DNA from: a virus
Lineage: Duplodnaviria > Caudoviricetes
DNA: 64,000 bases
Virus record (IMG/VR): IMGVR_UViG_3300033076_001139
Coordinates: 87,106 to 151,105 of that record
Direction: 5' to 3' (one strand)
Shown: one piece after another, positions 35,538 through 58,290 of the stretch
Layout: each line of letters starts with the position of its first letter
How positions within the stretch are numbered: the first letter of the stretch is position 1
Notes under the pieces: generated by a model
Database searches by the model: none
The model's input: only the letters and a program-made list of their open reading frames with translations
Told to the model about the DNA's origin: nothing
Translations under genes and position numbers: made by a program

Positions 35538-35561
35538 TAGCTACCTCCGGTGTAGCAACTA

Positions 35562-35570
35562 CTTATGCCC
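35562..35570 (-). promoter_or_regulatory. Candidate phage promoter GGGCATAAG
   Basis: Heads the 15.5-kb replication operon. The same motif occurs at 40915, 56070 and (variant) 58282. Confidence 0.55.
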
Positions 35571-35612
35571 GCGTTGTCGTTATACTTCGTACCCTTCTTC
35601 TTCGGGGGATAG

Positions 35613-35618
35613 TATGAT
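35613..35618 (+). promoter_or_regulatory. Putative -10 element TATGAT
   Basis: In the divergent intergenic region, upstream of SD AGGAG and GTG 35642. Confidence 0.5.
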
Positions 35619-35641
35619 AGGCACGCCTAGGAGAATCCGCC

Positions 35642-36250
35642 GTGAACGCATTTGACCTCATCGAAGACCTGAAGCACCGGTGGCATGATCTCGACTCATA
35701 CGACCGCCACGATCTCTCGGTTGCTGCTGCTAAACTGGCGTCTGCGCACGGAGCACAGGTCCCTGACGAAATCTACCGCTACAGCGGTGAGAGCGTCAGC
35801 CAGAATTTCAGCACCTACATGCGTCAGCGGCAAGAGTTTACGGCGAATGCGGATATCCAGGAGGCTTACGGCCGTCTGGCTAAGGTGGCGTCCGCAATTA
35901 ACCCCGACGAGCTTGTAAACCTTATTTACAAGCTTGACGACGATGCGGGCCTCATTCACCGTTACGGCAAGAACCTCCCTGACCCGCACCTCTGCGTGTT
36001 TGACCGCACGAAGGAAGCCTCGTGGTCCTGGATCCACGGGGGGCACTACGTCAATGAGGATCAGCTTCGTCGCCTTGCTACGGGGCCGACTCGCGATCAA
36101 ATGGAGAAGCTATTTGACTGTGACTTCGTGACGGAGTTCCGCAAGGATCCGCTTGGCAAGTTCCGGGACCTTGCGCCCGAGGCGCAGATCATCATTGCTA
36201 ATATGGCGTCACAGTCACAGCTCCGTAACGACGGAGGCTTCCGTTCGTGA
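35642..36250 (+). CDS. Hypothetical head-region protein with K-x-A-S motifs
   Basis: Contains KLAS, KVAS and KEAS. SD AGGAG. First gene of the portal operon. Confidence 0.7.
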   Translation: MNAFDLIEDLKHRWHDLDSYDRHDLSVAAAKLASAHGAQVPDEIYRYSGESVSQNFSTYMRQRQEFTANADIQEAYGRLAKVASAINPDELVNLIYKLDDDAGLIHRYGKNLPDPHLCVFDRTKEASWSWIHGGHYVNEDQLRRLATGPTRDQMEKLFDCDFVTEFRKDPLGKFRDLAPEAQIIIANMASQSQLRNDGGFRS

Positions 36251-37041
36251 AGTTATTGACGGACGATACAACCTCTCCCGTCGTTCTGTTTTTCTACTGC
36301 ACAAAGAAATACGGACACGAGTGGATGAAGTGGGCACCGGAGGTCCTCAAGCGCACGCTTGAGCTAGACCACCCGGGCGTCGTGCTATCCAAGAAAGCCC
36401 TCAACAGGGCTCTTGCAGCGGCGGTAGTTGCGTCTCGTGACTCGTTTTTTGAGGACTGGGAGCCTTTTCATTTTCTGACGCAGGCCCTCGTCCTCGGTAC
36501 GCCTACCGCCGACACAATGCAGGAGCACTCAGTTGGAGAGATGATGGCGGCGGTAGATGACGCGATCTACATTCGTGATCACCTCGGTAAGCTTGTTGCG
36601 CGCCCGTCCTTCTCGGATACCGTGGCACGCTACGTCGCTGCGCAGGCACTGAATCAGGGAGTCTGGTACCTTCCCGCACCTCTAGATTTTGCAAGCGACT
36701 ACGCGGGCATGAAGCGGTATCACTGCCGCGACTGCGGACATGAGGGAGAGATTTTCGCAAACGACGGCCTCTGTGACGTATGCACAGAGCGGTTCGACAC
36801 GGATAGCCTGCGTGAGTTCAAACCGAGCACGAGCACCGCAGCACGTGGCTTGGGCAGAAATACACAGATTATCTTTAAGAATCCGCAGGACGGCGTAAAG
36901 GCTCGGTTACGCGCTCTCCAGCAGAATCCTGCATCATTTAATGGCACGCAGGATGATGTGTGTGCTGCAAAGCTGCTAGAGGCTATCGACTACACGAACC
37001 ATCGCCGCGTTCAGCGCGATCTTGAGATGCGAGGGCTGTGA
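36247..37041 (+). CDS. Hypothetical protein with zinc ribbon
   Basis: CRDC...CDVC. Coupled on both sides. Confidence 0.7.
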   Translation: MKLLTDDTTSPVVLFFYCTKKYGHEWMKWAPEVLKRTLELDHPGVVLSKKALNRALAAAVVASRDSFFEDWEPFHFLTQALVLGTPTADTMQEHSVGEMMAAVDDAIYIRDHLGKLVARPSFSDTVARYVAAQALNQGVWYLPAPLDFASDYAGMKRYHCRDCGHEGEIFANDGLCDVCTERFDTDSLREFKPSTSTAARGLGRNTQIIFKNPQDGVKARLRALQQNPASFNGTQDDVCAAKLLEAIDYTNHRRVQRDLEMRGL

Positions 37042-37787
37042 TGGACGCACGTATACTGCGGGCTTTTGGCTCAGAACTAGAAAAAATAGCGGTCATGTCC
37101 GAGGACAAGCCGGGATTCTGGTCTGCGGCTAAGGCTCCGTTTACTGAGACGGCCAAGCTTGTCCGACCAAGTACTGCCAAAGACGCGTGGAAAGACCTGT
37201 GGCATGGCTCGTCTAACGCACACCCCTTAAACCGAGAGTTCCTGCACGAAGAACTACACGGCACCGTAAACCCAAAAACTGGACGTAGAGAAGGCGGGGC
37301 AATTGCTGGACTGAAAGGCAAGGGTACGTACGTCGATGACATTTCGCATGCTAAAGGCGTGCGCGCGGACCTACGCCGCGGTGGCTGGCTTGCCAACATG
37401 GCTAAGTATGAGGGCCCCAGCACCTGGCGAAAAGGAATAAACGCAGTGACTCGCCACCTTCCCGGGCAGCGCACCCTTCTGCTGGGCGGTACTGCCCTGG
37501 GGCTTCATTCTGATTTACAGAAAAAAGACCCCACTACCGGCCGCGAAAGAGGGGCGGCTGAGCGCGTGCTTGGGGCAACGGGCGGAGTAGCGGGCAGCCT
37601 AGGTGCAAGCGCACCCGGTGCTGTTCGCGCTATGTCTCGCGGAGGTATGAAAGGAATGGTGGGCGGCATACTTGGCTCTACCGTCCTTGGTATCGGCGGA
37701 AGCATGGGCGGCGGTTATCTTGGTCGTAAGATCGACGAGGCGCGGGGTTTTAAGCCTAGCGCCCCTCCTAACCAGGTGCCCGGATGA
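37038..37787 (+). CDS. Putative internal virion protein with AF..EL.K.A leader and glycine-zipper C-terminus
   Basis: 'LRAFGSELEKIA' N-terminus, basic middle and Gly-rich hydrophobic helices at the C-terminus. Confidence 0.55.
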   Translation: MMDARILRAFGSELEKIAVMSEDKPGFWSAAKAPFTETAKLVRPSTAKDAWKDLWHGSSNAHPLNREFLHEELHGTVNPKTGRREGGAIAGLKGKGTYVDDISHAKGVRADLRRGGWLANMAKYEGPSTWRKGINAVTRHLPGQRTLLLGGTALGLHSDLQKKDPTTGRERGAAERVLGATGGVAGSLGASAPGAVRAMSRGGMKGMVGGILGSTVLGIGGSMGGGYLGRKIDEARGFKPSAPPNQVPG

Positions 37788-39937
37788 ACTTCTTCAGCGG
37801 CTCGGTAGACTCGGGCGACCGGTTTAATACCCGGAATCTACAAGCAAATGGGCAGCGGAGCTTTGGCGTCCGCTACCCTTCGCCATTCTTCGATGTCGCG
37901 CAGCAGTTCCTACCTGACAACGTCCACCAGCTCCTCACGTGGTGTAGGTTCTACTTCTTGTCGAACCCCATCATCAATGTGGCGTGCTCAAAGATGGCGG
38001 AGTACCCGGTTACTCCCATTATCTTTGACACGGATGACGCAGGTAAAAAGAAGCTCTACAAGGACTTAGAGGAGCAGCTCAACCTGCGCCAGTTCCAGGT
38101 CGAGGCTGGGCTGGACTACTTTGCTTACGGAAACGCATTTGTTTCCGTGTACTACCCGTTTGTTAAATACCTTGCTTGCCGTCACTGCAAGGAGCGGTAC
38201 CGCGCAGAGACAAACCGCTCCCTGTACAAATGGCGTAACAATCGCTTTTTCCTGAATTGTCCGGGCTGTCGCAAGGCAGACTACGCAGAAGAGCGGGATG
38301 TCTACATTCGTTCCGTCCGTGACATTCGCCTTGTGCGTTGGAACCCGGAAAATATCCAGATCAAGCACAACGAAGTTACCGGACAGAGCAGGTACTACTA
38401 CAAGCTTTCGCGCGCAATTATCAACGATATCACAATGGGAGATCCCGATACTATCGAGAAACTGCCCATCGAGTTCCTTGAGGCGGCGCGCAAGAATAAG
38501 GCACTGCGCTTCAGCACGGACAACTTCTTCCACCTGAAGCGGCCTACTCTGGCGCAGAAGGACCAGGGCTGGGGTTCCCCGCTTATCTATCCGCTCCTCA
38601 AGGACGCGTTCTACCTTCAGACATTGAAGAAGGCGCAGGAAAGCATCGCGATGGAGCATATCGTTCCACTGCGTATGATCTTCCCCGGGCCGTCCACCGG
38701 AGGAAACGACCAGCCGTACGGTTCGTACAACCTTACGAACTGGAAATCCAAGATTGAGACGGAACTCTCTATTTGGAAGCGCGACAATAACTACATCCCC
38801 ATCCTGCCTGTGAATATTGGTTTCCAGCAGTTTGGCGGAGATGCCCGCGCTCTCATGTTGCATCAGGAATTCCGCCTCGTCGCGGAACAGATGCTTGTTG
38901 GTGCGGGCATCCCGATTGAATTCGTATTCGGCGGACTGTCCTGGAGCGGCAGCAACACGTCGTTGCGCGCTCTTGAGAACATGTTCCTTGGGTACAACCG
39001 TGCCCGTCACCACATGGTGAACGAGTTCATCTTCGGCAACATCGCGGCATTCATGCGGTGGCCTACCGTCACTTGTCGCTTTGACCGCTTCAAGATGGCG
39101 GACGACCTTCAGCGGTCGATGTTCTACCTCCAGCTCAATCAGGCGCTCAAGATCTCCGACAAGCGTCTTCACGAGGAGCTGGGGGAGGACACAGATACAG
39201 AAGTACGCCGTATGCGCGACGAGATGAAAATCCAGCTCGATGTGCAGCGGAAGATGCAGGTTGCCACCGCGGATATCCAGGGCGAGGCTCAGCTTCGTTC
39301 CTCGCGTTACTCCATCAAGGCGCAGGAGCTTCAGGGCAAAGCGCAGATGGCACAGCAGCAGGAAATGGCCGCTATGCAGCAGCAACAGGCACAGGAGCAG
39401 GCCGCCGCACAGGGCGGACAGCCACAGTCCCCCCTTACGCCTGCACAGCGTGCGCCAAACGCGCAAACCCCAGAAGCTGCACAGCAAAACGAAGCTGCAC
39501 AGCAACAGCAGCCGCAGGAGCAGGCTCCCGAGCAGGAGCAGCCTGCGCAAGAGCAACCGCAAGAGCAAGCGCAGCAGACCGCAGGAATGCCCCAGGGCGC
39601 AACTGCGTACGATGAGAACGCGCAGACGCCCAACGGGGCACTTCCCGTTGCGATGGCCGGCATGACCTCGCCGCTAGCGGCAGGCGCGGGTGGGGTGGAT
39701 CTCCGCTACGTAGCTCAGCGCGCCAAGGCGTTCCTCGACACAATCGGAGAGGAGCAGGGTGAGGCGCAGAAGCAGCAAGAGCTGATGAAGATGCGTGTAG
39801 AGAATCCCGCGCTGTACCAACTAGTCATACAGCTAATGAATGAGACCGCAGGGTCTCAAGTAAATCCCCTCAACGCCATGAAGGCGCCAGTGCCCGCTGG
39901 TGGAACCCAGCGGGCAGCTGGACGTCAGATTGGCTAA
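37784..39937 (+). CDS. Portal protein (with zinc-finger insertion and Gln-rich C-terminal extension)
   Basis: 'NPIINVACSKMAEYP', 'DYFAYGNAFV', 'FFHLK.......WGSPLI' and 'QMLVGAGIP' follow HK97-like portal motifs. CRHC...CPGC insertion. Confidence 0.7.
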   Translation: MNFFSGSVDSGDRFNTRNLQANGQRSFGVRYPSPFFDVAQQFLPDNVHQLLTWCRFYFLSNPIINVACSKMAEYPVTPIIFDTDDAGKKKLYKDLEEQLNLRQFQVEAGLDYFAYGNAFVSVYYPFVKYLACRHCKERYRAETNRSLYKWRNNRFFLNCPGCRKADYAEERDVYIRSVRDIRLVRWNPENIQIKHNEVTGQSRYYYKLSRAIINDITMGDPDTIEKLPIEFLEAARKNKALRFSTDNFFHLKRPTLAQKDQGWGSPLIYPLLKDAFYLQTLKKAQESIAMEHIVPLRMIFPGPSTGGNDQPYGSYNLTNWKSKIETELSIWKRDNNYIPILPVNIGFQQFGGDARALMLHQEFRLVAEQMLVGAGIPIEFVFGGLSWSGSNTSLRALENMFLGYNRARHHMVNEFIFGNIAAFMRWPTVTCRFDRFKMADDLQRSMFYLQLNQALKISDKRLHEELGEDTDTEVRRMRDEMKIQLDVQRKMQVATADIQGEAQLRSSRYSIKAQELQGKAQMAQQQEMAAMQQQQAQEQAAAQGGQPQSPLTPAQRAPNAQTPEAAQQNEAAQQQQPQEQAPEQEQPAQEQPQEQAQQTAGMPQGATAYDENAQTPNGALPVAMAGMTSPLAAGAGGVDLRYVAQRAKAFLDTIGEEQGEAQKQQELMKMRVENPALYQLVIQLMNETAGSQVNPLNAMKAPVPAGGTQRAAGRQIG
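39350..39580 (+). repeat. Gln/Ala/Glu/Pro low-complexity region
   Basis: QQQ.AQEQ / EQ.PQEQ repeats. Direct repeat GAAGCTGCACAGCAA at 39473 and 39491. Confidence 0.7.
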
Positions 39938-40756: not shown

Positions 40757-40757
40757 C

Positions 40758-40874: not shown

Positions 40875-40914
40875 GTGTTCCTATGCACTACGGCGTTATG
40901 CCGCGTGCAGTTAT

Positions 40915-40923
40915 CTTATGACC
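40915..40923 (-). promoter_or_regulatory. Candidate phage promoter GGTCATAAG
   Basis: Identical to 56070-56078. Followed on the minus strand by a hairpin (40884-40909). Confidence 0.55.
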
Positions 40924-40933
40924 TCCAACGGGT

Positions 40934-40939
40934 TACGAT
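40934..40939 (+). promoter_or_regulatory. Putative -10 element TACGAT, leaderless promoter of the RNAP gene
   Basis: Exactly 6 nt before ATG 40946, with no SD. Confidence 0.55.
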
Positions 40940-40945
40940 TTCGCC

Positions 40946-43900
40946 ATGCCTGAACTAAATCCAGAGTCCGCATTCGACGAAGTTAAGACTCGCGCAGCTG
41001 CCGCGATCCGTGCTCAGTTCCCGATGGCGGGCACAAAGCACCGGCTGGAGCTGGAGAACCTTGAGGTCGAGGACAACCTGCACCTGGACGACATCCAGTC
41101 GCAGTACCAAAAGCGGGTAGAGGGCGGAACGTGGGCGGTTCCCGTCAAGGCAACGTTCCGTCTCGTAGATATTGCTACGGGCAAGAAGCTAGATGAGGGC
41201 GTAATCACGGTTGCCCGCATCCCCAAGATTACGCGCCGCTACAGCTACATTGTTGACGGGCACGAGAGGCAGCACGACAGCGTGTTCCTACTCAAGCCCG
41301 GCGTGTACCACCGCGTTGCGGACAACGGAGAGATCCAGTCCAAGTGGGCTTTCCAGGGTAAGCGCGGCTTTGACCTGAATATTGATCGCGCAACTGGCCG
41401 CGTAAACATGAGTATCGGCACCGCTACCGTGCCTATCTACTCGGTGCTGAAGTCCCTCAATATGCCGGATGCGGATATTGAGAAGGCGCTCGGAAAGGCC
41501 GTCTTTGACGCCAACAAGGCCAAGACCAAGCCCGAGGATCTGCTAAAGATCCCCAAGACATTTGCGAAGACTAACGACGAAAAAAAGAAGCTCGTCGGCA
41601 TGACCCCGGCCGATGCCTCGGCCTACGTGGCTAAGCTCTTTACGGACATGAAGACGACGCGCCCAGACGGTGACCAGCACAACACGCTGGGCCTGGAGTT
41701 TGGTCACGTCACCGCTCCCGCTCTCCTAGCGTCTGCAAAACGCATCTTGGATATCTCTCGCGCACACGCAGAGCCTGACGACCGACAGACGCTGGCAGCA
41801 AAAGACATCACAAGTACGCCGGATTTCGTGGAGCGGTTTATTACCCGCGCTCAGCGCGACTCTACGCGCAAGATTACGGCCGTCATTGACCGCGCCTCAA
41901 AGCTTTCCGAGCTTCCGATTCGTGATCTTTACACCGGAACGATTGCAAATACCTTCCGTGCCGCGCAACTACCTGAGCAGACCAACCCGCTCCAGTTCCT
42001 ATCGGGGCATCTGCGCACTACGATCCTCGGTGCCGACTTTGGCGGTATCAAGGGCGGTGAGACGATCAAGACAGAGGACAAGCTCATCAATGCGTCGCAC
42101 CTTGGGTTCCTTGACCCAATTCAGACGCCAGAGAGTGACTCTACTGGTATCTCCCTTAACCTCCCAATTGGTGCGCGTAAGAAGGGCAAGGTCCTTGTTA
42201 CTCGTGTCTGGGACGTAAAGAAGGGGTCGTTCGTAGAAGCTACACCGGGGATGCTGGAGCGCGCAGTCGTCGCGTATCCCGACCAGGTATCGTGGAAAAA
42301 CGGCAAGCCTACGCCTAACGGCACGACTGTCACTGTATTCGACGCAGACCGCCGCACAGCCCAGCGGGCATGGTCAGACGTGCAGTACGTACTGCCTTCC
42401 TCAAAGGGCTTGTTCTCGTTTGCGGCCAATCTGGTTCCGTTTCTATCTACGAACTCTGGCGGCCGTGCCATGTTCGCAGCTAAGCAGATGGAGCAGGCAA
42501 TCTCCCTCAAGGACCGAGAGGCTCCCCTAGTTCAGACGAAGACGGATGCTGATTACACGTTTGATGAGTTGGTTGGGACGTTTGGGTCGCACACCGCCCC
42601 CACTAGCGGGACCGTCGCAAAGGTAGACAGCAGCCACGTGCACATCAAGGGCGACGATGGCAAGGTCAAAAAGGTAGCCCTGTACGACCACTTCCCGCTG
42701 AACGGCGGCAAGACCATGCTGCACTCCGACACGTTGGTGAAGGCGGGCGACAAGGTAAAGAAGGGCCAGACCATCGCGGACACAAACTACACGCGAGGCG
42801 GCAAGCTAGCTCTTGGCACGAATATGCGCGTCGGGTACATGACGTACCACGGGCGTACGTTTGAGGACTCCATCGTAGTCTCCGAGAGCGCCGCAAAGAA
42901 GCTCACGTCTACTCACCTACACGAGATGGCTACCGAGCTGTTTGCGGGCATGCAGACGGACAAGAAACGCTGGATTTCCTACTCAACGCCCGACAAGGCA
43001 ACGGCCGCCCGAGTGAACAAACTCGGCGACGATGGCGTGATCAAGGAAGGGCAGCGTGTTGAGCACGGCGATGTACTTATTGCAGTTGTTGCGCCTGCTC
43101 GTGTTGATCCTCGAGATGAGGCGCGGACGATCGCACGATCCCTTGCCACGCCGTACGACACCCGAGGAAGTGTATATTGGGAGCACGATTACCCCGGGGT
43201 AGTCGCCAAGGTCTCCCGATCTGGGAAGTCCGTAAAGGTTTTCGTGCGTACCGAGGAGCCCTCTACAATCGGCGACAAGCTCACTGGTCGCTACGGCAAC
43301 AAGGGCATTATCGGTACGATCCTTCCTGACCACGAAATGCCGCACGACAAGGAAGGCAAGCCGCTTGAGGTAATCCTCGGGCCGGCGGGCGTTCCTAGCC
43401 GTATGAATATTGGTCAGCTGCTTGAGACGGCGGCATCCAAGATTGCGCGTAAGACTGGCAAGCCGTACGTCGTCGACAATTTCTCGCCCGGCGTTGACTA
43501 CACACAAAAGGTGATGGACGAGCTGAAGCAGCACAATCTGTCCGATACAGAAGAGCTGTTTGACCCGAAGACCAAGCGCAGTCTGGGAAAGATTCTCACA
43601 GGGGATCAATACCTACTGAAGCTGCACCACCAGGTTGATAAGAAGATGACTGCGCGCTCACACGGAGGTGCGTATGATTCTAACGGTGAGCCTCCTGGTG
43701 GCTCTGGTATTCCCGGCGGTGGTCAGACGCTTGACCAGCTTACGACGTACGCTCTTCTTGCCCACGGGGCGTCCAATATCCTTCGTGAGGCCCAGACATG
43801 GAAGTCTGACCAGACTCAGTCGGATGTCTGGGTAGCCCTCCAGCAAAATCGTCCGTTGCCCGACCCCAAGCCAAACAAGAGCATGGGGAAGTTCATCAAC

Positions 43901-46900
43901 TACATGCGCGCGATGGGTATGCACATGGAGAAGAAGGGGGACAAATACGTCCTTCAGCCTCTCACAGATGAGCAGACCCTAAAATTCAGTACGGGCAAGC
44001 TGGCCGCCCCATCAAAACTGACCACAATTAAGGGCGACCTCAAGCAAGTTACTGCGCGCACTATTGAGGACAAGGGTGGCCTCTTCGACAAGAAGTTGAC
44101 GGGCGGTCTCCAGGGCAACTTCTGGACGCACATCGACCTGCACCACAGGCTCCCCAACCCAGTATTTGAGCGGGCTATTCAGTCACTCACTGGCATTGAT
44201 GAGAAGACCTACGACAAGCTCGTGTCGGCCGAAGGAAACGAGGGCGGCAAACTTGGTACTGAGGTAATTGTCGACGCCCTCAAGAAAATTGACGTAGACA
44301 AGGAACTGAAAGACCTTCAGGCGCAGCTGCCAAAATTAAAAGCCGCTCCGCTGGATCGGGCGTATCGCCGTATCCGCTACCTACAGGCCCTCAAGAAGAC
44401 AAACATCAAGCCTGTAGACGCGTACACCATGAACCATTTACCGGTTCTGCCGCCTACGATGCGTCCGCTCATGGTAAATCCCGACGGCACGCAGACGGTC
44501 GATGACCTCAACTTGCTCTACCAAAATGTCGGCATCCTGAATGAGTCTCTCCGCAAGAATGTGGCAGAGGGAGTTGGCAAGGCTGCGCAGCAAAAGCAGG
44601 TTGCAGACCTCTACGACTCCGTAAAGGCGCTTCGCGTCGGCGGCATGGACATCCAGCAGAAGTCCTCCAAGGCCCGACACTACCGCGGTCTCATGGAGCT
44701 GATGGAAGGGACCAAGGGTTCATACTTCCAAAGTTCTGTTGTTTACCGCCGGCAAGATCTATCTGGGCGTTCAACGATTATTACCGCACCAGAGCTTGGA
44801 CTAGACGAGGCGGGTATCCCGCTGCCCATCGCGTTCGAGATGTACAAGCCGTTCGTCGTGAAGGAATTGCATGCTCGCCACAACTACCTTCCACACGAAG
44901 CTAAGAAGATGGTGGACGAAAAGCACCCATTTGCCGTGGAAGTGCTTCATCGTGTTGTTGCTGATCGTCCTGTTCTTCTGAAGCGCGACCCGTCGCTCCA
45001 CAAGTTCTCAATCCTTGCGTTTACTCCGCGCATCACCGAGGGCAAAGCTATCGGCCTGCACCCGCTTGTGACTACTGGATTCAACGCAGACCACGACGGC
45101 GATACGATGGCCCTCTACGTCCCACTCGGAAACGAGGCTGTAGAGGACGCAAAGAAGATGATGCCCTCGAACAATCTGTTCTCTCCCACCTCGGGGCAGA
45201 TCATGGCGATGCCCGAGAAGGATCTACTGATTGGTCTGTTCCAGGCAACCAAGTGGGGAGACAAAGCCTCCGTTAAAATCGCGTCTGCGGAAGAAGCCTA
45301 CAAGCTGTGGACGGACGGCAAAGTACACGAAGACCAGACGTTCAACCTGAACGGCCGAGAAACAACCGTAGGGCGCGCCATCATCGCGCACTTCCTACCT
45401 ACGGATATGCAGAATGACGACAAGCTCCTGCATGACAAGTCGTACCGCTTTGACAAGGGAACCCTACAAACCCTTCTCACAAAAGTCGCCAAGGAGCACA
45501 AGCAGGACTACGCACGCGTTGTGAAGTCCCTTCAGGACTTCAGCGTGAAGGCAGCCTACTTCAACGGCAGCTCGTTCTCACTTCACGACTTCCATGATGC
45601 TGTGAAACTGCGCGACGACATCCTTGGCAAGTACGAGGCAGAGGAAAAGAAAATCCGCGCCTCTAAGATCTCGGATGCCGAGAAGGATCAGAAGATCATC
45701 CAGCTCTACGCTGGTGCCGTAGATGAGATCAAGAAGAAGGGTGAGGCTGCATATGGGGGCAGCAAGAACAAGATGTACGAGTGGGTAGCGGCGAAGGCGC
45801 GCGGAAACTGGGAACAGTTCCGGCAAATGACGTTCGGACCCATTCTTGTTGCCGACGCCAAGAACCGCCCGATCCCAATCCCCATCAACAAGTCGTACGC
45901 GGAAGGTCTGACAACCTCCCAGTACTGGACCTCGATGCACGGCGCACGTAAAGGTGCAATTGACCGAGCAGCAGGAACTGCCGAGCCCGGCGCAATGTCG
46001 AAGATCATCATTAACACTGTGATCGACCATCAGATCACGGGTGAGGATTGTCACACGACAAAGGGCGTGGCCCTCTCGATTGACGATCGCGACGTGCATG
46101 ACCGCTACCTTGCACAGCCGGTGCACGTCTCAGGCGGCAAGGACGTTCCCGCAAATACCCTCCTGACCTCGCAGGTAGTGCAGCAGTTGCGGGCCGCCAA
46201 GGTGGCGCAGGTTGTTGTGCGCTCTCCGCTCTACTGCCAGATGCCGAAAGGCACCTGTGCAAAATGCTACGGGCTTAATGAGAACGGTAAGCACTACAAC
46301 GTGGGTACGAACGTTGGCGTCATCGCGGGTCATACCCTTGGCGAGCCCATGACGCAGATGGCGATGAAAACGTTTCACACAGGCGGTACCGTCTCCTCTT
46401 CAAAGGGCGGCGGGGAGTACTCGGCCGACGCCTTCGAGCGTGTGAAGCAGATCTTTAATGTCCCGGCGATTCTACCAGGAGCGGCAACAATCTCCTCAAT
46501 TGGCGGGAAGATCACCAAGATCGAAGAAGATAAGGCGCGCGGCGGCCACCGAGTATTTGTGAACGACAAGGAGCACCGCGTTCTCGCGGATCGTCATCTT
46601 CTCGATACGACCAAGGTGGGGACGGAAGTCAAGGCGGGTCAGCCGCTATCACACGGCGCGATTAACCCCCACGACCTGCTCGATGCCACGGGCAATATCC
46701 ACGTTGTTCGCAATTACCTGACAAATGAAGCGTTGTCTGCGTACGCAAACTCCGGCGCAAAGCTACGGCGGCGTAACGTAGAAACAGTCGTAAAGTCGAT
46801 GACAAACGTTGTCCGCATCGAAAATGCGCCGGATCACCACGAATACATTCGTGGACAGCTTGCGCCGTTTGACCAGGTGGAGCACCTAAATCGCGAGGCA

Positions 46901-47146
46901 AAGACTAAGGGCCTGCACCCGATTGAGTTCACTCATGTTCTGAAGAGCATGGAGCAGATCCCGCTCACTTATTCTGAGGACTTCCTTGCGCGTGCAAACT
47001 ACCGCAGGTTGAAGGACACGTTCACGGAAGCGGCGTCACAGGCGTGGTCCTCGGATATCCACGGGTCGCACGTTGCAGGATTGGCTCATGGCGCTGAGTA
47101 CGGTCTCAAGAAGCTCCAGCCCCCGGGACAGGCACCGCACGTATGA
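40946..47146 (+). CDS. Single-chain fused beta-beta' DNA-directed RNA polymerase (2066 aa)
   Basis: Beta motifs: 'TFEDSI', 'GDKLTGRYGNKG', 'GVPSRMNIGQ', 'KLHHQVDKKMTARS', 'GGQ..D....YALLAHGA'. Beta' motifs: 'LPVLPPTMRP', 'SGRSTI', 'R.PSLH', catalytic 'NADHDGD', bridge helix 'HGARKG..D.A..TA', 'VRSPLYC....C..CYG', trigger loop 'GEPMTQ..MKTFHTGG'. Confidence 0.97.
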   Translation: MPELNPESAFDEVKTRAAAAIRAQFPMAGTKHRLELENLEVEDNLHLDDIQSQYQKRVEGGTWAVPVKATFRLVDIATGKKLDEGVITVARIPKITRRYSYIVDGHERQHDSVFLLKPGVYHRVADNGEIQSKWAFQGKRGFDLNIDRATGRVNMSIGTATVPIYSVLKSLNMPDADIEKALGKAVFDANKAKTKPEDLLKIPKTFAKTNDEKKKLVGMTPADASAYVAKLFTDMKTTRPDGDQHNTLGLEFGHVTAPALLASAKRILDISRAHAEPDDRQTLAAKDITSTPDFVERFITRAQRDSTRKITAVIDRASKLSELPIRDLYTGTIANTFRAAQLPEQTNPLQFLSGHLRTTILGADFGGIKGGETIKTEDKLINASHLGFLDPIQTPESDSTGISLNLPIGARKKGKVLVTRVWDVKKGSFVEATPGMLERAVVAYPDQVSWKNGKPTPNGTTVTVFDADRRTAQRAWSDVQYVLPSSKGLFSFAANLVPFLSTNSGGRAMFAAKQMEQAISLKDREAPLVQTKTDADYTFDELVGTFGSHTAPTSGTVAKVDSSHVHIKGDDGKVKKVALYDHFPLNGGKTMLHSDTLVKAGDKVKKGQTIADTNYTRGGKLALGTNMRVGYMTYHGRTFEDSIVVSESAAKKLTSTHLHEMATELFAGMQTDKKRWISYSTPDKATAARVNKLGDDGVIKEGQRVEHGDVLIAVVAPARVDPRDEARTIARSLATPYDTRGSVYWEHDYPGVVAKVSRSGKSVKVFVRTEEPSTIGDKLTGRYGNKGIIGTILPDHEMPHDKEGKPLEVILGPAGVPSRMNIGQLLETAASKIARKTGKPYVVDNFSPGVDYTQKVMDELKQHNLSDTEELFDPKTKRSLGKILTGDQYLLKLHHQVDKKMTARSHGGAYDSNGEPPGGSGIPGGGQTLDQLTTYALLAHGASNILREAQTWKSDQTQSDVWVALQQNRPLPDPKPNKSMGKFINYMRAMGMHMEKKGDKYVLQPLTDEQTLKFSTGKLAAPSKLTTIKGDLKQVTARTIEDKGGLFDKKLTGGLQGNFWTHIDLHHRLPNPVFERAIQSLTGIDEKTYDKLVSAEGNEGGKLGTEVIVDALKKIDVDKELKDLQAQLPKLKAAPLDRAYRRIRYLQALKKTNIKPVDAYTMNHLPVLPPTMRPLMVNPDGTQTVDDLNLLYQNVGILNESLRKNVAEGVGKAAQQKQVADLYDSVKALRVGGMDIQQKSSKARHYRGLMELMEGTKGSYFQSSVVYRRQDLSGRSTIITAPELGLDEAGIPLPIAFEMYKPFVVKELHARHNYLPHEAKKMVDEKHPFAVEVLHRVVADRPVLLKRDPSLHKFSILAFTPRITEGKAIGLHPLVTTGFNADHDGDTMALYVPLGNEAVEDAKKMMPSNNLFSPTSGQIMAMPEKDLLIGLFQATKWGDKASVKIASAEEAYKLWTDGKVHEDQTFNLNGRETTVGRAIIAHFLPTDMQNDDKLLHDKSYRFDKGTLQTLLTKVAKEHKQDYARVVKSLQDFSVKAAYFNGSSFSLHDFHDAVKLRDDILGKYEAEEKKIRASKISDAEKDQKIIQLYAGAVDEIKKKGEAAYGGSKNKMYEWVAAKARGNWEQFRQMTFGPILVADAKNRPIPIPINKSYAEGLTTSQYWTSMHGARKGAIDRAAGTAEPGAMSKIIINTVIDHQITGEDCHTTKGVALSIDDRDVHDRYLAQPVHVSGGKDVPANTLLTSQVVQQLRAAKVAQVVVRSPLYCQMPKGTCAKCYGLNENGKHYNVGTNVGVIAGHTLGEPMTQMAMKTFHTGGTVSSSKGGGEYSADAFERVKQIFNVPAILPGAATISSIGGKITKIEEDKARGGHRVFVNDKEHRVLADRHLLDTTKVGTEVKAGQPLSHGAINPHDLLDATGNIHVVRNYLTNEALSAYANSGAKLRRRNVETVVKSMTNVVRIENAPDHHEYIRGQLAPFDQVEHLNREAKTKGLHPIEFTHVLKSMEQIPLTYSEDFLARANYRRLKDTFTEAASQAWSSDIHGSHVAGLAHGAEYGLKKLQPPGQAPHV

Positions 47147-50674: not shown

Positions 50675-50682
50675 GGATCCAC

Positions 50683-54303: not shown

Positions 54304-54467
54304 TCTCACAAGCCGTACTTCGCGCGTTTGGCGAAGAGCTAAAAAAGGTAGCGGCAATGGCTCCGCTACCTCCTACTAAGCCGACGTTTAACGTCGCAGC
54401 TACGCAAGCCCCGAAGGCGTCTACGGCGGCGCAGCCTGTAAAGGCCGCGATCCCGTCAGTCTCCTAG
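54300..54467 (+). CDS. 55-aa peptide consisting largely of an AF..EL.K.A leader
   Basis: GTG 54300 overlaps the upstream TGA. MISQAVLRAFGEELKKVAAMAPLPP..., nearly identical to the leader of 37038. Confidence 0.6.
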   Translation: MISQAVLRAFGEELKKVAAMAPLPPTKPTFNVAATQAPKASTAAQPVKAAIPSVS

Positions 54468-55060: not shown

Positions 55061-55370
55061 GTTCTCCCTCCACGAAGGGGTTGTTGTTAAGCACTGGACC
55101 AATCCCCTTTACGAAAATCAGGGCAGTAAAATCATAGCCCTGCCAGCGCGATTTACGGTAAGAAGCGTCGTTCACTTCCGCCCACTGACGGAGGAGGTCA
55201 CGGATAATCCGCGCCTCCTCCGCCTTCATGGGCCGTTTCGACCGGAGAAGCAGACCCCATTTGAGGGGGTCTGCCTGATCCGGCTGAAGATCCCACCCGA
55301 GCAAGCCATCGAGGAGAGCACGGTTAGTGCTCTCCGCAAATGACTTGACCCAGGTGAGACTCTTGATCAT
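55035..55370 (-). CDS. Hypothetical protein
   Basis: Coupled ORF upstream of rnhB. Confidence 0.6.
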   Translation of the reverse strand: MIKSLTWVKSFAESTNRALLDGLLGWDLQPDQADPLKWGLLLRSKRPMKAEEARIIRDLLRQWAEVNDASYRKSRWQGYDFTALIFVKGIGPVLNNNPFVEGEREHLLRSR

Positions 55371-56020
55371 GCGTTGCGGTAAGCCGACGCAAAGGCGTCA
55401 GCAAGCGCACGACCAGTGAGGCCAGTCGAGGTCTGCTCTGCGACCTTCGGCCCGGCAGCCACCTGCCCCATGCGGGTGATCCCGATGAAATTCGGGGCCT
55501 TCATCCCAAGGCTCACCTCCAGCCACCAGGGGAACTCCTGAACGGTCTGGAGGTACGCTTCCCGGACCATCTCCTGAAGCTCCTCGGGAGACGAGGGGCG
55601 GCGACCTTCGCCTTCCTTCGGGCTGACGCGGAAGTGGAGCAGCCCCACCGGCGCGTTCACCGTGACGAACCGCACCACCTGTGGCACGGGGTCCGTGCTG
55701 AGAATGGCAGCGTGGCCGTAGATCATGCCGCTGACCTCGGGACCCGGCTTCGGCATCCAGAGCTTCCCTGCACGCGCGGACGGCCCGCACTCGATCACCG
55801 CGCCGATGGGGCGCTCCGCTTCTGCCGCCTCAAGCGCGGAGAAGAGCCGCGGCACCGTGCGCAACGCGCCCGATGCCTCCGTGATGTTCTCGAATCCCGC
55901 CTCTCCCGGGGCGAGCAGCCGATCTACCACGATCCACGCGGCGCCGTAGGCCACGCCGTTGCGAACACCCTCACGCGATTCCCTCACCTCGCGACCTGCG
56001 AGTACTGCCAAGTTGGCCAT
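55367..56020 (-). CDS. Hypothetical protein
   Basis: Strong SD GGAGG and high-GC3 codons. First gene after the GGTCATAAG motif. Confidence 0.7.
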   Translation of the reverse strand: MANLAVLAGREVRESREGVRNGVAYGAAWIVVDRLLAPGEAGFENITEASGALRTVPRLFSALEAAEAERPIGAVIECGPSARAGKLWMPKPGPEVSGMIYGHAAILSTDPVPQVVRFVTVNAPVGLLHFRVSPKEGEGRRPSSPEELQEMVREAYLQTVQEFPWWLEVSLGMKAPNFIGITRMGQVAAGPKVAEQTSTGLTGRALADAFASAYRNA

Positions 56021-56060
56021 GTGGCCTCCCTCTTTGTTGTGAATGCTACCCGGAATGGGT

Positions 56061-56066
56061 TAGCAT
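56061..56066 (+). promoter_or_regulatory. Putative -10 element TAGCAT, leaderless promoter of terminase
   Basis: Exactly 6 nt before ATG 56073, with no SD. Confidence 0.5.
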
Positions 56067-56069
56067 TTT

Positions 56070-56078
56070 CTTATGACC
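56070..56078 (-). promoter_or_regulatory. Candidate phage promoter GGTCATAAG
   Basis: Overlaps the terminase start codon. Followed on the minus strand by hairpin 56042-56067. Confidence 0.55.
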
Positions 56079-57833
56079 ACATCTTTTCAGGAATTTTCTG
56101 CGGGTATTGACGACGAAATCCACAACGCGTGGGACTTCGAGCCGCCCGCGCGCGAGGTTGAAGACTGGGAGGCAGCGGCTTTTGAGGAGGAAGTAGGTAC
56201 TTCTTTTACGCTCAGCCCAAGCCAGTTTGTCGAGCAGGCAATCCTGATGCCAGACCCGCACACTCGCAAGCTGGAGCCGTTTGATTTTGCCGAGCGGCCC
56301 TACCTAAAGAAGATCTACGACACACCAAGCAAGCGCCGTCTGTTGGTCTGCGCCCGTCAGGTCGAGAAGTCGACAATGCTTGGAAACTTGTCTCTCACTT
56401 ACAGCTGCTTGATCCCGCACTTCAAGGTCCTCTACGTTTCGCCCTCAAGCACCCAGACGAAGGTGTTTTCTAAGGACCGCCTGAAGGAGCCAATGGAGAC
56501 CTCGCCTGTACTGAAGGCGTGGTTTCCGGGCATGCTGACGGACAACGTCTACGAAAAGAAGGCACTGAACCGAAGCCAGATCATTTTGCGCTACGCGTTC
56601 CTGAGCGCAGACCGTGTCCGTGGTATCCCTACCGACGCCATCTTCATTGACGAGTTTCAGGACATCTTGCTTGAGAACGTGTCCGTTATCGAGGAGTGCG
56701 CTTCCCACTCCCCCTTCAAGTGGTTCTCATACTCTGGAACGCCTAAGTCACTCGACAACCCCATCGAGTTCTACCTGAGTAACTACTCAACACAGAACGA
56801 ATGGGCCGTTCCTTGTGATCGTCACGGCACGCCCAATAATCCTGGATCGTGGCACTGGAATATCTTGGGAGAGGATAATATCGGGGCGAATAGTCTCGTG
56901 TGTGACCGTTGTGGCGAGAAGATCATCGCCAATCACCCGATGGCACAGTGGGTTCGTACGGGAAGCCCAGACCCCAAGTTTGATGCTTTTGAGGGTTTCC
57001 GCATCCCACAACTGATGGTTCCGTGGCTGCCGTGGAAAGAATTGCTCGCAAAGTACAACCAGTACCCTCGCGCCAAGTTCTACAACGAGGTGCTTGGACG
57101 TAGTTTCGACTCCGGTCAGCGGCCCCTGACAAAGCAGGATGTGCTGGACAACTGTAATCCCGAGGTAGCCCTTGATCCGGAGTCGGTTGCCAAGACGCGC
57201 CAGAGGATTGGTAGCGGACGTATCTACGCCGGTATCGACTGGGGCCAGGACTCGACAAACTCGTACACTGTGATCTCCCTCGGTGCCTACCTCGATGGCA
57301 GATTTCAGATCTTCTTCATGCATAGGTTCACGGGCGCAGAGAGCGAACCAGGCGAGCAGCTAAAAAAGATCTTCAAGATCATCGAAGGGTTCAACGTATC
57401 CCGCGTGGGAGTTGACTACGGTGGTGGGTTCTTCCCTAACGGAGAGCTGCTCAAGAAATATGGGGCTGGACGCATCGTTCGTTACCAGTATTCTGCACCG
57501 GCTGTTTATATGAAGTACGACGCAAACCTTGGCCGATACATGGTTCACAAATCTGAGGTGATGAGTTCCGTGTTTGCGGCAATCAAGCGCAAGACAGTGT
57601 TCCGTTTCCCGCGCTGGAATGACTTCTCGTCACCGTTTGCGAGCGACTGTCTCGCGGTGTTCTCGGAGTACAACGAGCGCACACGGATGACAGAGTACAA
57701 GAAGTCTCCAAATACAACGGACGACTCCCTGCACTCCATCCTATTTTGCTTCTTAGCCTCGATGACAGACTTTCCACGAGAGGACGTGTTCGTGCCCAGC
57801 GCAGCGGTGGATCGACTTTCATCTATGGACTAA
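56073..57833 (+). CDS. terL: Terminase large subunit (lambda GpA-like)
   Basis: Walker A 'ARQVEKST', 'RVRGIP', Walker B 'IFIDE', 'SGTP', Zn ribbon CDRH...CDRC, 'FYNEVLG', nuclease 'AGIDWG' and C-terminal 'DDSLHS'. Confidence 0.9.
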   Translation: MTTSFQEFSAGIDDEIHNAWDFEPPAREVEDWEAAAFEEEVGTSFTLSPSQFVEQAILMPDPHTRKLEPFDFAERPYLKKIYDTPSKRRLLVCARQVEKSTMLGNLSLTYSCLIPHFKVLYVSPSSTQTKVFSKDRLKEPMETSPVLKAWFPGMLTDNVYEKKALNRSQIILRYAFLSADRVRGIPTDAIFIDEFQDILLENVSVIEECASHSPFKWFSYSGTPKSLDNPIEFYLSNYSTQNEWAVPCDRHGTPNNPGSWHWNILGEDNIGANSLVCDRCGEKIIANHPMAQWVRTGSPDPKFDAFEGFRIPQLMVPWLPWKELLAKYNQYPRAKFYNEVLGRSFDSGQRPLTKQDVLDNCNPEVALDPESVAKTRQRIGSGRIYAGIDWGQDSTNSYTVISLGAYLDGRFQIFFMHRFTGAESEPGEQLKKIFKIIEGFNVSRVGVDYGGGFFPNGELLKKYGAGRIVRYQYSAPAVYMKYDANLGRYMVHKSEVMSSVFAAIKRKTVFRFPRWNDFSSPFASDCLAVFSEYNERTRMTEYKKSPNTTDDSLHSILFCFLASMTDFPREDVFVPSAAVDRLSSMD

Positions 57834-57883
57834 AAACTGATCCCATCTCCCGATGGAACCAGCCAGCGGCCTTACGGCCGCTG
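57832..57883. terminator. Paired hairpins at convergent gene ends
   Basis: CAGCGGCC-TTAC-GGCCGCTG (57864-57883, GTAA loop on the minus strand) and CCATC-TCCC-GATGG (57843-57856), with a T-tract downstream on the minus strand. Confidence 0.55.
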
Positions 57884-57889
57884 CTTCTA

Positions 57890-58234
57890 CTACTTCTTGC
57901 GGAGCAGGCGGCTCGCGGCGTAGCCCGCGACCGCGCCGCCACCAACACCGATGCCGATGTTGAGCGGGTTCAGCTCCCACCAGCCCTGCGTCGCGCCGAG
58001 GTACGCGGCACCGCCACCGATGACGGCACCGCCGCCGGCGTACATGACGTCTTCCTTTGTCACCCAGCTGTCGGCCGCCTGGACGATCTGGTCACGGTTT
58101 GCCTGAAGGGCGCGGATGCGGGCCTCGGTGGCCTGCTTCCACGCGTGGTCTTCGGCGCGGTCGTTCTGGTAGATCTCCACCAGCTCATTGATGTTCAAGG
58201 TCGTCTCAACTGCTGCGGGCTTGGCTGCTGCCAT
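57890..58234 (-). CDS. Small membrane protein with two glycine-zipper helices
   Basis: 'GGGAVIGGGAAYLG' and 'GIGVGGGAVAGYAA'. Start moved to ATG 58234 (SD GGAG). Confidence 0.7.
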   Translation of the reverse strand: MAAAKPAAVETTLNINELVEIYQNDRAEDHAWKQATEARIRALQANRDQIVQAADSWVTKEDVMYAGGGAVIGGGAAYLGATQGWWELNPLNIGIGVGGGAVAGYAASRLLRKK

Positions 58235-58281
58235 TTGTCGGATCTCCGTCCGGTTTTTGTGCCTATGATTGGGCACAAATA

Positions 58282-58290
58282 ATTATGGCA
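58282..58290 (-). promoter_or_regulatory. Variant candidate promoter TGCCATAAT
   Basis: Followed after 2 nt by the 8-bp hairpin TTTGTGCC-N8-GGCACAAA (58256-58279). Confidence 0.45.

What the first reader, a model, noticed from the sequence alone, without database searches (positions are those of the whole stretch)
35538..58290. Shared nGnCATAA[G/T] motif plus an immediate hairpin at the head of four minus-strand transcription units
Seen on the minus strand: (1) 35570 GGGCATAAG-tagtt-GCTAC accggag GTAGC, heading the replication operon. (2) 40923 GGTCATAAG-ataac-TGCAC g CGGC ataac GCCG ta GTGCA. (3) 56078 GGTCATAAG-aa-AATGCTA a CCC attcc GGG TAGCATT. (4) 58290 TGCCATAAT-ta-TTTGTGCC caatcata GGCACAAA. 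The motif is conserved, while the hairpins 2-5 nt downstream share only structure. I did not see it before any plus-strand virion gene. Inference: this is the promoter of the phage single-chain RNAP, with the stem-loop acting as a 5'-end mRNA stabiliser or as a structural promoter element (compare the N4 virion-RNAP hairpin promoters). Caveat: CATAAG also occurs a few times inside genes.
Basis: partly seen in the sequence, partly recalled or inferred. Interest (0 to 1): 0.88.

Follow-up and report, generated by a model that had tools for sequence, protein, structure and literature searches.

The report
Phage sigma-type early promoter with 5' hairpin
The four sites belong to about 30 copies of a two-part promoter that heads the early and replication genes of a 151-kb phage and is shared by its whole phage clade; it is most likely read by the phage's own flagellar-type sigma factor together with its single-chain RNA polymerase, and the hairpin is the start of the mRNA, not part of the promoter.

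Summary
Observation confirmed. All four motif-plus-hairpin sites are exactly as described.

- **Enrichment.** In the window alone the short motif is not over-represented (7 hits, 8.3 expected). In the whole 151,105-bp phage contig, GnCATAA[G/T] occurs 35 times on the minus strand and 4 on the plus strand (shuffles 8.6). In intergenic DNA the count is 22 versus 1 (shuffles 1.2).
- **Architecture.** The element is bipartite: cCTAAAa, a 17-nt spacer to the hexamer, K-G-Y-CATAAG, then T-G/purine about 6 nt later.
- **Resemblance.** This is the geometry, and partly the sequence, of sigma-28 (FliA) promoters.
- **Sigma factor.** The phage encodes a FliA/WhiG-like sigma in its structural block. In the cultured relative Arash, this sigma and the RNA polymerase are found in virion preparations.
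- **Conservation.** The motif is strand-specific in relatives of 46-69% GC. Arash has a TGGTATAAGTA version.
- **Hairpin.** It starts 8-12 nt after the C of CATAAG and often carries the ribosome-binding site in its loop. Many promoters in relatives lack it, so it is a 5'-terminal RNA stem-loop and not an N4-like promoter element.

Which core enzyme reads the promoter, and where transcription starts, remain inferred. Other agents of this scan reached a similar reading for related phages on other DNA.

The parts
35571..35591 (-). Site 1 upstream half: weak -35-like stretch (tacgaag, 35585-35591) and the spacer running down to the motif.
   Evidence: PWM 23.8.
35562..35570 (-). Site 1 -10-like element GGGCATAAG, heading the replication module.
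   Evidence: The downstream operon holds helicase, DnaB-like helicase, primase, DNA polymerase, UvsX-like recombinase and Cas4-like exonuclease.
35540..35556 (-). Site 1 hairpin GCTAC-accggag-GTAGC. The loop contains GGAG. A TTG at 35537 follows, so the SD may lie in the loop, but the start codon is uncertain.
40915..40923 (-). Site 2 -10-like element GGTCATAAG, with a -35-like cgaaat at about 40938-40944. It is divergent from the RNA polymerase gene.
   Evidence: PWM 15.7.
40884..40909 (-). Site 2 hairpin (-15.1 kcal/mol). It is followed by AGGA and a GTG start at about 40874 of a 38-aa ORF.
56070..56078 (-). Site 3 -10-like element GGTCATAAG, with a -35-like AGAAAAT at 56093-56099. Its CAT is the complement of the terminase start codon.
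   Evidence: PWM 31.3. The orthologous promoter is conserved in relatives.
56042..56067 (-). Site 3 hairpin (-11.9 kcal/mol), followed by GAGGGAGG and the ATG at 56020.
   Evidence: Orthologues keep a hairpin with a different sequence.
58282..58290 (-). Site 4 -10-like element TGCCATAAT, with an A-run -35 at 58305-58311. It lies between two co-directional minus-strand genes.
   Evidence: PWM 26.9.
58256..58279 (-). Site 4 hairpin, followed by GGAG and the ATG at 58234. Predicted energy is -10.7 kcal/mol for a 32-nt fold of the hairpin and -15.0 for a 44-nt window that also holds a second small stem.
   Evidence: The inner stem differs in relative L005 with compensating changes.
21681..21689 (-). 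Candidate extra member: a TATAAG variant with a GACGCCGG-aaa-CCGGCGT hairpin, inside the replication module. It overlaps a called ORF.
   Evidence: PWM 18.9. Not followed further.
20210..35537 (-). Replication and recombination gene block transcribed from site 1.
40946..47146 (+). Fused beta-beta' bacterial-type RNA polymerase (2066 aa), the candidate core enzyme. The beta' clamp-helix region, where sigma region 2 docks, aligns without a gap to bacterial beta'.
37784..39937 (+). Portal protein homologue (30% to Arash gp204), placing the polymerase gene in the head-gene block as in Arash.
56073..57833 (+). Large terminase, divergent from site 3. It was used to fetch relatives.

Best explanation
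**Promoter class.** The four sites are members of one promoter class with about 30 copies in this 151-kb phage. The class drives all minus-strand units: a long array of small early-type genes, the replication module, and three small operons in the window.

**Architecture.** The promoter is bipartite and sigma-type.
- An A-rich -35 element, cCTAAAa.
- A 17-nt spacer to the hexamer. Its last three bases, K-G-Y, form an extended -10-like element directly upstream of the hexamer.
- The hexamer CATAAG (G, rarely T, at the last position).
- T-G/purine about 6 nt downstream, where transcription most likely starts.

**Recognition.** It is most likely read by the phage's own FliA/WhiG-like sigma factor (genome 79245-80018, just upstream of the window) bound to the phage's fused beta-beta' polymerase. 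Both are probably made late, packed into the particle and delivered with the DNA, so that early genes are read without the host's sigma-70.

**Hairpin.** It is encoded right at the predicted 5' end of the RNA. It most likely acts as a 5'-terminal stem-loop that shields the mRNA from 5'-end-dependent decay. In short-leader genes it also presents the Shine-Dalgarno sequence in its loop.

**Shown here:** the motif, its architecture, its strand and position bias, the position-specific hairpin, clade-wide conservation, and the presence of the sigma and the polymerase.

**Inferred:** the start site, which sigma and which core enzyme act, virion delivery, and the role of the hairpin.
For: 1. **Enrichment and strand bias.**
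2. **Bipartite logo.** A at positions -20 and -19, G at -2 in 23 of 25 sites, T at +10 in 20 of 25, G at +11 in 18 of 25 (numbered from the C of CATAAG).
3. **Terminator-promoter modules.** At least 5 of 29 sites sit just after a GC hairpin plus T-run. TTTCTTTT occurs 14 times on minus and 2 on plus.
4. **Match to sigma-28.** The P. aeruginosa fliC sigma-28 promoter is (-36)TCTAAAG(-30) and (-15)GCCGATAA(-8) (PMC12784957). With C taken as -12, this element puts cCTAAAa at -36..-30 and KGYCATAA at -15..-8.
5. **The sigma factor.**
   - The phage sigma matches Pfam Sigma70_r3 above its cut-off.
   - Its best NCBIfam models are FliA/WhiG.
   - Its best PDB sequence match is the sigma chain of entries 6pfv/6pfj; Foldseek lists 6pfv chain G as the S. 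venezuelae RsiG-WhiG complex.
   - The AF2 model (pLDDT 87) matches full-length sigma factors; the top hit is a B. subtilis SigD model.
6. **Conservation of the sigma.** It is present in all five large relatives, always on the strand opposite the motif.
7. **Strand-specific motif in relatives.** Forward/reverse counts with controls: G001 0/32 (control 2/1), G004 10/0, G005 0/13, G002 17/3. TerL loci of 46-69% GC show the same.
8. **Arash.** Salmonella phage Arash (polymerase about 30% identical) has about 25 minus-strand TGGTATAAGta sites before its small genes. G at the last hexamer position is not the sigma-70 consensus of its host.
9. **Virion proteomics in Arash.** RNAP beta is the top protein by spectra. 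Beta' and the sigma homologue Gp10 (100% coverage) are in virion preparations (PMC10585845). Synteny of sigma, portal and polymerase is shared.
10. **Docking site.** The beta' clamp-helix region is conserved.
11. **Hairpin.** The positional MFE dip is. The SD lies in the loop at genome 69238, 47669, 41204 and 38092. Orthologous hairpins keep their structure with different sequence.
Against: - No RNA data exist.
- The Arash authors themselves note that enzymes in their virion preparation may be abundant contaminants; ribonucleotide reductases are also listed.
- The sigma scores far below the FliA/WhiG family cut-offs.
- The -12 and -14 positions differ from the sigma-28 consensus.
- A phage sigma could equally well load onto the host core enzyme.
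- The contig is only about 81% complete, so a second polymerase or sigma could be missing. Arash has a second sigma, gp196, with no homologue found here.
- The total folding energy of the 40 nt after the motif is only slightly lower than for random 40-mers of this GC-rich genome (p = 0.03).
- A loose 5-bp hairpin criterion is not significant. The hairpin signal is positional and is weaker in relatives.
Confidence: 0.6

Rival explanations
1. The phage sigma reads these promoters, but on the host core RNA polymerase, as T4 gp55 and SPO1 gp28 do. The fused phage polymerase would then serve another gene class.
For: - All phage-encoded sigma70-family factors characterised so far redirect the host core (own knowledge).
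- The promoter geometry is exactly bacterial.
Against: - The sigma gene sits in the late and structural block, while its promoters head early-type genes. The sigma must therefore pre-exist at infection.
- In Arash, the sigma and the polymerase are both in virion preparations.
- The phage polymerase keeps the clamp helices where sigma docks.
- No other promoter class that could employ the phage polymerase was evident.
Confidence: 0.15
2. These are ordinary early promoters for host sigma-70 holoenzyme, of the extended -10 type (TGnTATAAT-like).
For: - K-G-n before the hexamer resembles an extended -10.
- CATAAG and TATAAG match TATAAT at 4-5 of 6 positions, with the usual distance to the gene start.
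- Many phages use host polymerase for early genes.
Against: - The last hexamer base is G in 21 of 25 sites here, and in nearly all Arash sites. Sigma-70 requires T at -7 (sigma-70 rule cited in PMC7598289).
- There is no TTGACA-like -35; cTAAAa stands in its place.
- The same consensus is kept in phages of 46-69% GC.
- A dedicated phage sigma co-occurs with it.
Confidence: 0.08
3. The host flagellar sigma (FliA, sigma-28) holoenzyme reads them, so the phage ties its early genes to motile cells.
For: The -35 element and the spacing are those of sigma-28 promoters, and ATAA at -11..-8 is identical.
Against: - The GCCG of the sigma-28 -10 element (GCCGATAA) reads KGYC here: -14 and -12 differ and -13 is a partial match. 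-14 and -13 are the GC pair that the cited paper calls the extended -10.
- The phage carries its own FliA-like sigma.
- Hosts are unknown, and reliance on a sigma held inactive by FlgM would be risky (own knowledge).
Confidence: 0.04
4. The hairpin is a DNA or structural promoter element, as in phage N4 virion-polymerase promoters, and not an RNA feature.
Against: - The hairpin is downstream of the conserved element.
- It contains the SD and the start codon at several sites, so it is transcribed.
- Many promoters in G001 and Arash have no hairpin.
- The polymerase is a multisubunit-type enzyme with a sigma, not an N4/T7-like enzyme.
Confidence: 0.04
5. The motif is not a promoter. It would be an RNA-processing site or the operator of a phage regulator, repeated before genes.
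For: No transcript data are available. Intergenic, strand-specific repeats can also be cleavage sites or operators.
Against: - The two conserved blocks stand at sigma-type spacing.
- The motif follows terminators and stands at divergent junctions where a promoter is required.
- It has no dyad symmetry.
- It is conserved together with a sigma factor.
Confidence: 0.05

Closest known systems
Sigma-28 (FliA/WhiG/SigD) promoters, e.g. P. aeruginosa fliC: (-36)TCTAAAG(-30) ... (-15)GCCGATAA(-8) (PMC12784957)
   Same: - Two-block architecture.
- CTAAA -35 at the same distance.
- ATAA at -11..-8.
- The cognate factor here is most similar to FliA/WhiG sigmas.
   Different: - The -10 block reads KGYCATAAG: -12 is C not G, -14 is G not C, and there is a conserved G at -7.
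- The sigma is phage-encoded and far below the family cut-offs.
- The probable core is a phage single-chain polymerase.
- The regulon is phage early and replication genes, not flagellar genes.
Early promoters of phiKZ- and AR9-type jumbo phages, read by the virion multisubunit polymerase (review PMC7598289)
   Same: - A conserved AT-rich motif centred near -10, found bioinformatically before early operons.
- The polymerase is (probably) virion-delivered and related to cellular beta/beta'.
   Different: - Those enzymes have split beta/beta' pieces and no sigma70-family factor, and their promoters have a single block.
- Here the enzyme is one fused chain close to bacterial beta/beta', the promoter is bipartite, and a sigma70-family factor is present.
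Salmonella phage Arash (OQ632216; PMC10585845)
   Same: - Homologous polymerase, sigma (gp10), portal and terminase.
- The same genome layout.
- An analogous minus-strand motif, TGGTATAAGta, before small genes.
- Polymerase and sigma detected in virion preparations.
   Different: - Polymerase beta and beta' are separate genes in Arash.
- The hexamer is TATAAG, not CATAAG.
- Hairpins are rare.
- The paper reports no promoters.
Phage N4 virion-polymerase hairpin promoters
   Same: An inverted repeat is associated with each promoter of a virion-delivered polymerase.
   Different: - The N4 hairpin is upstream of the start and is the recognition element of a T7-like single-subunit enzyme (own knowledge; not checked in a paper here).
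- Here the hairpin is downstream, transcribed, dispensable in relatives and variable in sequence.
5'-terminal stabilising stem-loops of bacterial mRNAs (ompA type) (own knowledge)
   Same: A stem-loop lies at, or within a few nt of, the predicted 5' end, upstream of or around the ribosome-binding site.
   Different: - Here it is a systematic feature of one promoter class.
- It often has the SD in the loop.
- The stabilising effect is not tested.
T4 late promoters TATAAATA (gp55) (own knowledge)
   Same: Arash TATAAGTA differs at one of 8 positions. It is a phage-encoded sigma-family factor with a -10-centred motif.
   Different: T4 late promoters have no -35 block and need gp33 and the sliding clamp, and gp55 is a region-2-only factor. 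Here the sigma has regions 2-4 and there is a -35 block.

Membership tests
Sigma-28 (FliA) class promoter | -35 element TCTAAAG at -36..-30 | tested here: met
   The consensus is c-C-T-A-A-A-a at positions -24..-18 from the C of CATAAG, which is -36..-30 if C is -12 (reference sequence).
Sigma-28 (FliA) class promoter | -10 element GCCGATAA at -15..-8 | tested here: not met
   The consensus is K-G-Y-C-A-T-A-A. ATAA and the first G agree, but -14 is G (23 of 25) instead of C and -12 is C (all sites, by selection) instead of G. It works like a sigma-28 promoter but is not a strict member.
Sigma-28 (FliA) class promoter | Read by a FliA/WhiG-family sigma | tested here: inconclusive
   The phage sigma's best models are FliA/WhiG (E 2e-10, 40.6 bits), far below the cut-offs of 190-326 bits. 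Its fold is that of a full sigma. No binding test was possible.
Sigma-70 housekeeping promoter (including extended -10) | -10 TATAAT with T at -7, and -35 TTGACA | tested here: not met
   The last hexamer base is G in 21 sites and T in 4 of 25. The first base is C. The -35 block is cTAAAa.
N4-type hairpin promoter | Hairpin upstream of the start site, required for recognition | tested here: not met
   The hairpin starts 8-12 nt downstream of the C of CATAAG and includes the SD and start codon at several sites. It is absent from many promoters of G001 and Arash.
Jumbo-phage virion-polymerase early promoter | Conserved AT-rich motif near -10 before early operons | tested here: met
   The motif lies before about 24 small minus-strand genes and the replication operon. 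The position relative to the start site is inferred only.
Jumbo-phage virion-polymerase early promoter | Polymerase present in the virion and acting without host polymerase | not testable with these tools
   Only indirect evidence exists: Arash virion mass spectrometry and the gene's position in the head block.
5'-terminal stabilising stem-loop | Stem begins within a few nt of the transcript 5' end and prolongs mRNA life | not testable with these tools
   The predicted start (position +11/+12) coincides with the stem start (+8..+12). There are no 5'-end or half-life data.

The most novel reading that the evidence does not exclude
A large uncultured phage clade, with Arash as a cultured outlier, carries a self-contained, virion-delivered transcription machine. 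It consists of a single-chain bacterial-type beta-beta' polymerase, with no alpha-subunit gene identified here, that uses a co-packaged sigma-28-family sigma factor. Together they read a clade-wide promoter code (CTAAA, 17 nt to the hexamer, the last three being K-G-Y, then [C/T]ATAAG). To my knowledge this would be the first viral multisubunit polymerase shown to depend on a sigma70-family factor. Its early mRNAs would be built to start with a protective hairpin that displays the ribosome-binding site.
Probability: 0.4. Interest if true: 0.8.

Novelty: new variant of a known kind. Interest (0 to 1): 0.66.

Why it matters
- **A defined promoter for an unstudied polymerase family.** The fused ~2,050-2,120-aa polymerase is widespread in metagenomes: the best 120 hits are nearly all fused forms of about 2,000-2,800 aa, many on 100-200-kb contigs. 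I found no published promoter for it. The Arash paper never uses the word.
- **Directly testable.** A precise consensus plus a candidate sigma allows in vitro transcription, 5'-end mapping in Arash, and specificity swaps at -12, -14 and -7 against sigma-28.
- **Evolutionary reach.** If the sigma works on the phage core, sigma-dependent initiation extends to viral polymerases, and a bacterial-type enzyme may work without any alpha-subunit gene identified here.
- **Annotation.** The motif separates early/replication units from structural units in genomes where most genes have no known function.
- **mRNA design.** The SD-in-loop 5' hairpins are a compact design worth testing.

Tried and rejected
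- **Motif count in the window alone.** Not above chance. The case rests on position, the whole genome and relatives.
- **Loose hairpin criterion.** At least 5 bp with GU allowed, starting 8-15 nt after the C: 16 of 29 sites against 39-41% of random positions, not significant. Replaced by the sliding-window energy profile.
- **Total MFE of 40 nt after the motif.** Only weakly different from random genomic 40-mers (p = 0.03).
- **The motif as merely the reverse complement of plus-strand start codons.** True only for site 3 (terminase ATG). The ATGs at sites 1 and 2 open ORFs of 10-15 codons (read).
- **The hairpins as terminators for the opposite strand.** Only site 3 has a T-run on the plus strand; the genome-wide consensus does not.
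- **Exact GnCATAAG in Arash.** Not enriched. A de novo k-mer scan then found the TGGTATAAG variant.
- **Second sigma.** No homologue of Arash gp196 was found, and no further Sigma70_r2, r3 or r4_2 genes, apart from a weak r4_2-like HTH in the 256-aa protein at window 58296-59066.
- **A promoter of this class upstream of the sigma gene.** One weak plus-strand hit at genome 79056 is not conserved in five relatives.
- **Plus-strand promoter class.** No robust motif. Only GGGTTAnnnT at 4 intergenic sites.
- **PHROG annotation of most plus-strand genes.** It gave nothing.

Full report
**1. The observation.**
The four sites read exactly as reported. Each is followed by a hairpin, then a Shine-Dalgarno sequence and a start codon of a minus-strand gene about 46-58 nt from the motif; the start at site 1 is uncertain. 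Sites 1-3 lie at divergent junctions. Site 4 lies between two minus-strand genes. The CAT of site 3 is also the complement of the terminase ATG.

Inside the 64-kb window the bare motif is not enriched: 7 matches against 8.3 expected. The window alone could not have proved the point.

**2. The whole genome.**
The window is the last 64 kb of a single 151,105-bp IMG/VR phage contig, 57.6% GC, about 81% complete.
- GnCATAA[G/T] occurs 35 times on the minus strand and 4 on the plus strand, against 8.6 +/- 2.9 in dinucleotide shuffles.
- In intergenic DNA the count is 22 against 1, with shuffles giving 1.2 +/- 1.15 and a maximum of 5.
- Most extra copies precede small minus-strand genes between genome positions 10 and 58 kb.
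- An unbiased 8-mer scan for over-representation on the minus strand, with plus-strand counts alongside, returns GTCATAAG (15 v 0) and CATAAGTA (11 v 1). It also returns the terminator T-tract TTTCTTTT.

**3. Anatomy.**
Aligning 25 intergenic copies shows a two-block element. Positions are numbered from the C of CATAAG.
- cCTAAAa at -24 to -18.
- G at -2 (23 of 25), K at -3 and Y at -1.
- CATAAG, with G in 21 sites and T in 4 at the last base.
- T at +10 (20 of 25), G at +11 (18 of 25), and a purine at +12.

A PWM over -24..+12 gives 29 minus-strand hits of 15 or more and only two marginal plus-strand hits. At least 5 sites follow a GC hairpin plus T-run directly, forming terminator-promoter modules.

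**4. The hairpin.**
- Sliding 30-nt folds over the 29 sites show a sharp dip for windows starting at +6 to +10: mean -8.0 to -8.4 kcal/mol, mean z -2.0 to -2.15. Flanks give -3 to -5.
- Stems begin at +8 to +12 at most sites.
- At genome 69238, 47669, 41204 and 38092 the SD (AAGGAG) lies in the loop and the ATG lies in or just after the 3' arm. Others have the SD in the 3' arm or just after the stem. The hairpin is therefore transcribed.
- Cruder measures were weak.

**5. Relatives.**
- The terminase fetched 52 IMG/VR loci of 44-99% identity and 36-69% GC. GnCATAAG is almost always on the strand opposite the terminase.
- The orthologous terminase-divergent promoter keeps the A-rich -35 and the hexamer. 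It also keeps a hairpin whose sequence differs, for example TGCTCA-cga-TGAGCA against ATGCTAaCCC-attcc-GGGTAGCAT.
- Whole relatives give forward/reverse counts of 0/32 (G001, 183 kb, 99% complete; control 2/1), 10/0, 0/13, 17/3 and 1/8.
- In G001 many promoters have no hairpin: CATAAG-N5-TGAGGTGAAC-ATG. Transcription must then begin no later than about +12, and the hairpin is not required. The folding dip in relatives is weaker.
- The distant cultured relative Salmonella phage Arash (polymerase about 30% identical) lacks GnCATAAG enrichment. It has about 25 minus-strand TGGTATAAGta sites before its small genes, again with G at the last hexamer base and an A-rich block about 16-17 nt upstream.

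**6. Who reads it.**
The 2066-aa protein at window 40946-47146 is a fused bacterial-type beta-beta' polymerase. It is the only beta' homologue in the contig.

*The sigma.*
- A homologue of Arash gp10 lies at genome 79245-80018, plus strand, 7 kb before the window.
- It matches Sigma70_r3 above the Pfam cut-off.
- Its best NCBIfam models are FliA/WhiG.
- Its best PDB sequence match is the sigma chain of entries 6pfv/6pfj; Foldseek lists 6pfv chain G as the S. venezuelae RsiG-WhiG complex.
- Its AF2 model (pLDDT 87) aligns over its full length with sigma factors. The top hit is a B. subtilis SigD model.
- It is present in all five large relatives, always on the strand opposite the motif.

*The promoter match.*
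- The sigma-28 promoter of P. aeruginosa fliC is (-36)TCTAAAG(-30) and (-15)GCCGATAA(-8) (PMC12784957).
- With C taken as -12, the phage element places CTAAA and KGYCATAA at exactly those positions. It differs at -14 and -12 and adds G at -7.
- This fits a diverged sigma-28-type factor with its own specificity. It does not fit sigma-70, which needs T at -7 (PMC7598289).

*The virion link.*
- In Arash, polymerase beta is the most abundant protein in virion mass spectrometry. Beta' and Gp10 (100% coverage) are also present.
- The authors warn that abundant enzymes may contaminate the preparation (PMC10585845).
- Portal, polymerase, sigma and several structural genes are syntenic with Arash.
- The beta' clamp-helix region, where sigma region 2 docks, aligns without a gap to bacterial beta'.

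*The logic.*
- The sigma and polymerase genes lie among plus-strand structural genes, which lack the motif.
- The motif heads early-type and replication genes.
- The simplest programme is therefore virion delivery of a polymerase-sigma holoenzyme.

That step is inferred. The phage sigma acting on host core is the main rival.

**7. What is known.**
- Early-promoter motifs for virion multisubunit polymerases are known for phiKZ and AR9 phages. Those are single-block and sigma-independent.
- I found no paper describing promoters for this clade. The Arash paper does not use the word 'promoter'.
- Other notes of this scan reached similar readings. Two are on the same genome (e1-5781032, e1-5781045) and two are on related phages (e1-5644360, e1-5611650). 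I treat these as agreement, not as evidence.

**8. Verdict.**
This is a real, clade-wide promoter class of sigma-28-like architecture, most probably read by a phage sigma on the phage polymerase. In this phage most of its transcripts begin with a hairpin. I class it as a new variant of a known kind.

Noticed in passing
window 40930-40939 and 56057-56066 (+); also genome 53555 and 66519 (+): GGGTTAnnnT occurs 6 times on the plus strand and never on the minus strand, 4 of them intergenic. At the polymerase and terminase genes the TAnnnT part ends exactly 6 nt before an ATG that has no Shine-Dalgarno sequence. These may be leaderless late transcripts from a second promoter class. The numbers are small.
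   Followed up: partly
genome 69238, 47669, 41204, 38092 (outside the window); possibly window 35540-35556: Short-leader genes place the Shine-Dalgarno sequence in the loop of the 5' hairpin, with the start codon in or just after the 3' arm.
   Followed up: partly
L003, L073, L074 (Salmonella phage Arash OQ632216): About 25 minus-strand TGGTATAAGta sites precede Arash small genes and tRNAs. This is a promoter-like motif not mentioned in the phage's paper. Arash also has a second sigma (gp196, Sigma70_r2), which is absent from the part of the virion table I read (which skips from Gp194 to Gp197) and has no homologue in this contig.
   Followed up: partly
L063-L065 (relative G001): Many promoters run straight into TGAGGTGAAC-ATG 5 nt after CATAAG. 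The predicted leaders are only about 10 nt long and consist of a near-perfect anti-SD complement.
   Followed up: partly
L072:4310-8463 (relative G002): An array of 14 tRNA genes plus a tmRNA gene (tag ANNTNAFAPVALAA). One promoter copy has its hexamer 17 nt before tRNA-Arg.
   Followed up: no
genome 20796-39222 (before the window): Thirteen tRNA genes lie on the minus strand, eleven of them in one array at 38264-39222, inside the early-type gene region.
   Followed up: no
window 58296-59066 (-): A 256-aa protein with an N-terminal helix-turn-helix (HTH_17, MerR, weak Sigma70_r4_2, weak small-terminase PHROG) lies just upstream of site 4. It may be a DNA-binding regulator or a small terminase.
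   Followed up: no
window 21681-21689 (-): A TATAAG variant of the promoter with a strong GACGCCGG-aaa-CCGGCGT hairpin lies inside the replication module, overlapping a called ORF. It may be an internal promoter.
   Followed up: no
relatives L007, L008, L010, L019, L040 (terminase starts): The terminase ATG in relatives also lacks a Shine-Dalgarno sequence and lies 5-11 nt downstream of the complement of the divergent hexamer (CTTATG). The two divergent units overlap tightly. The meaning is unexplained.
   Followed up: no
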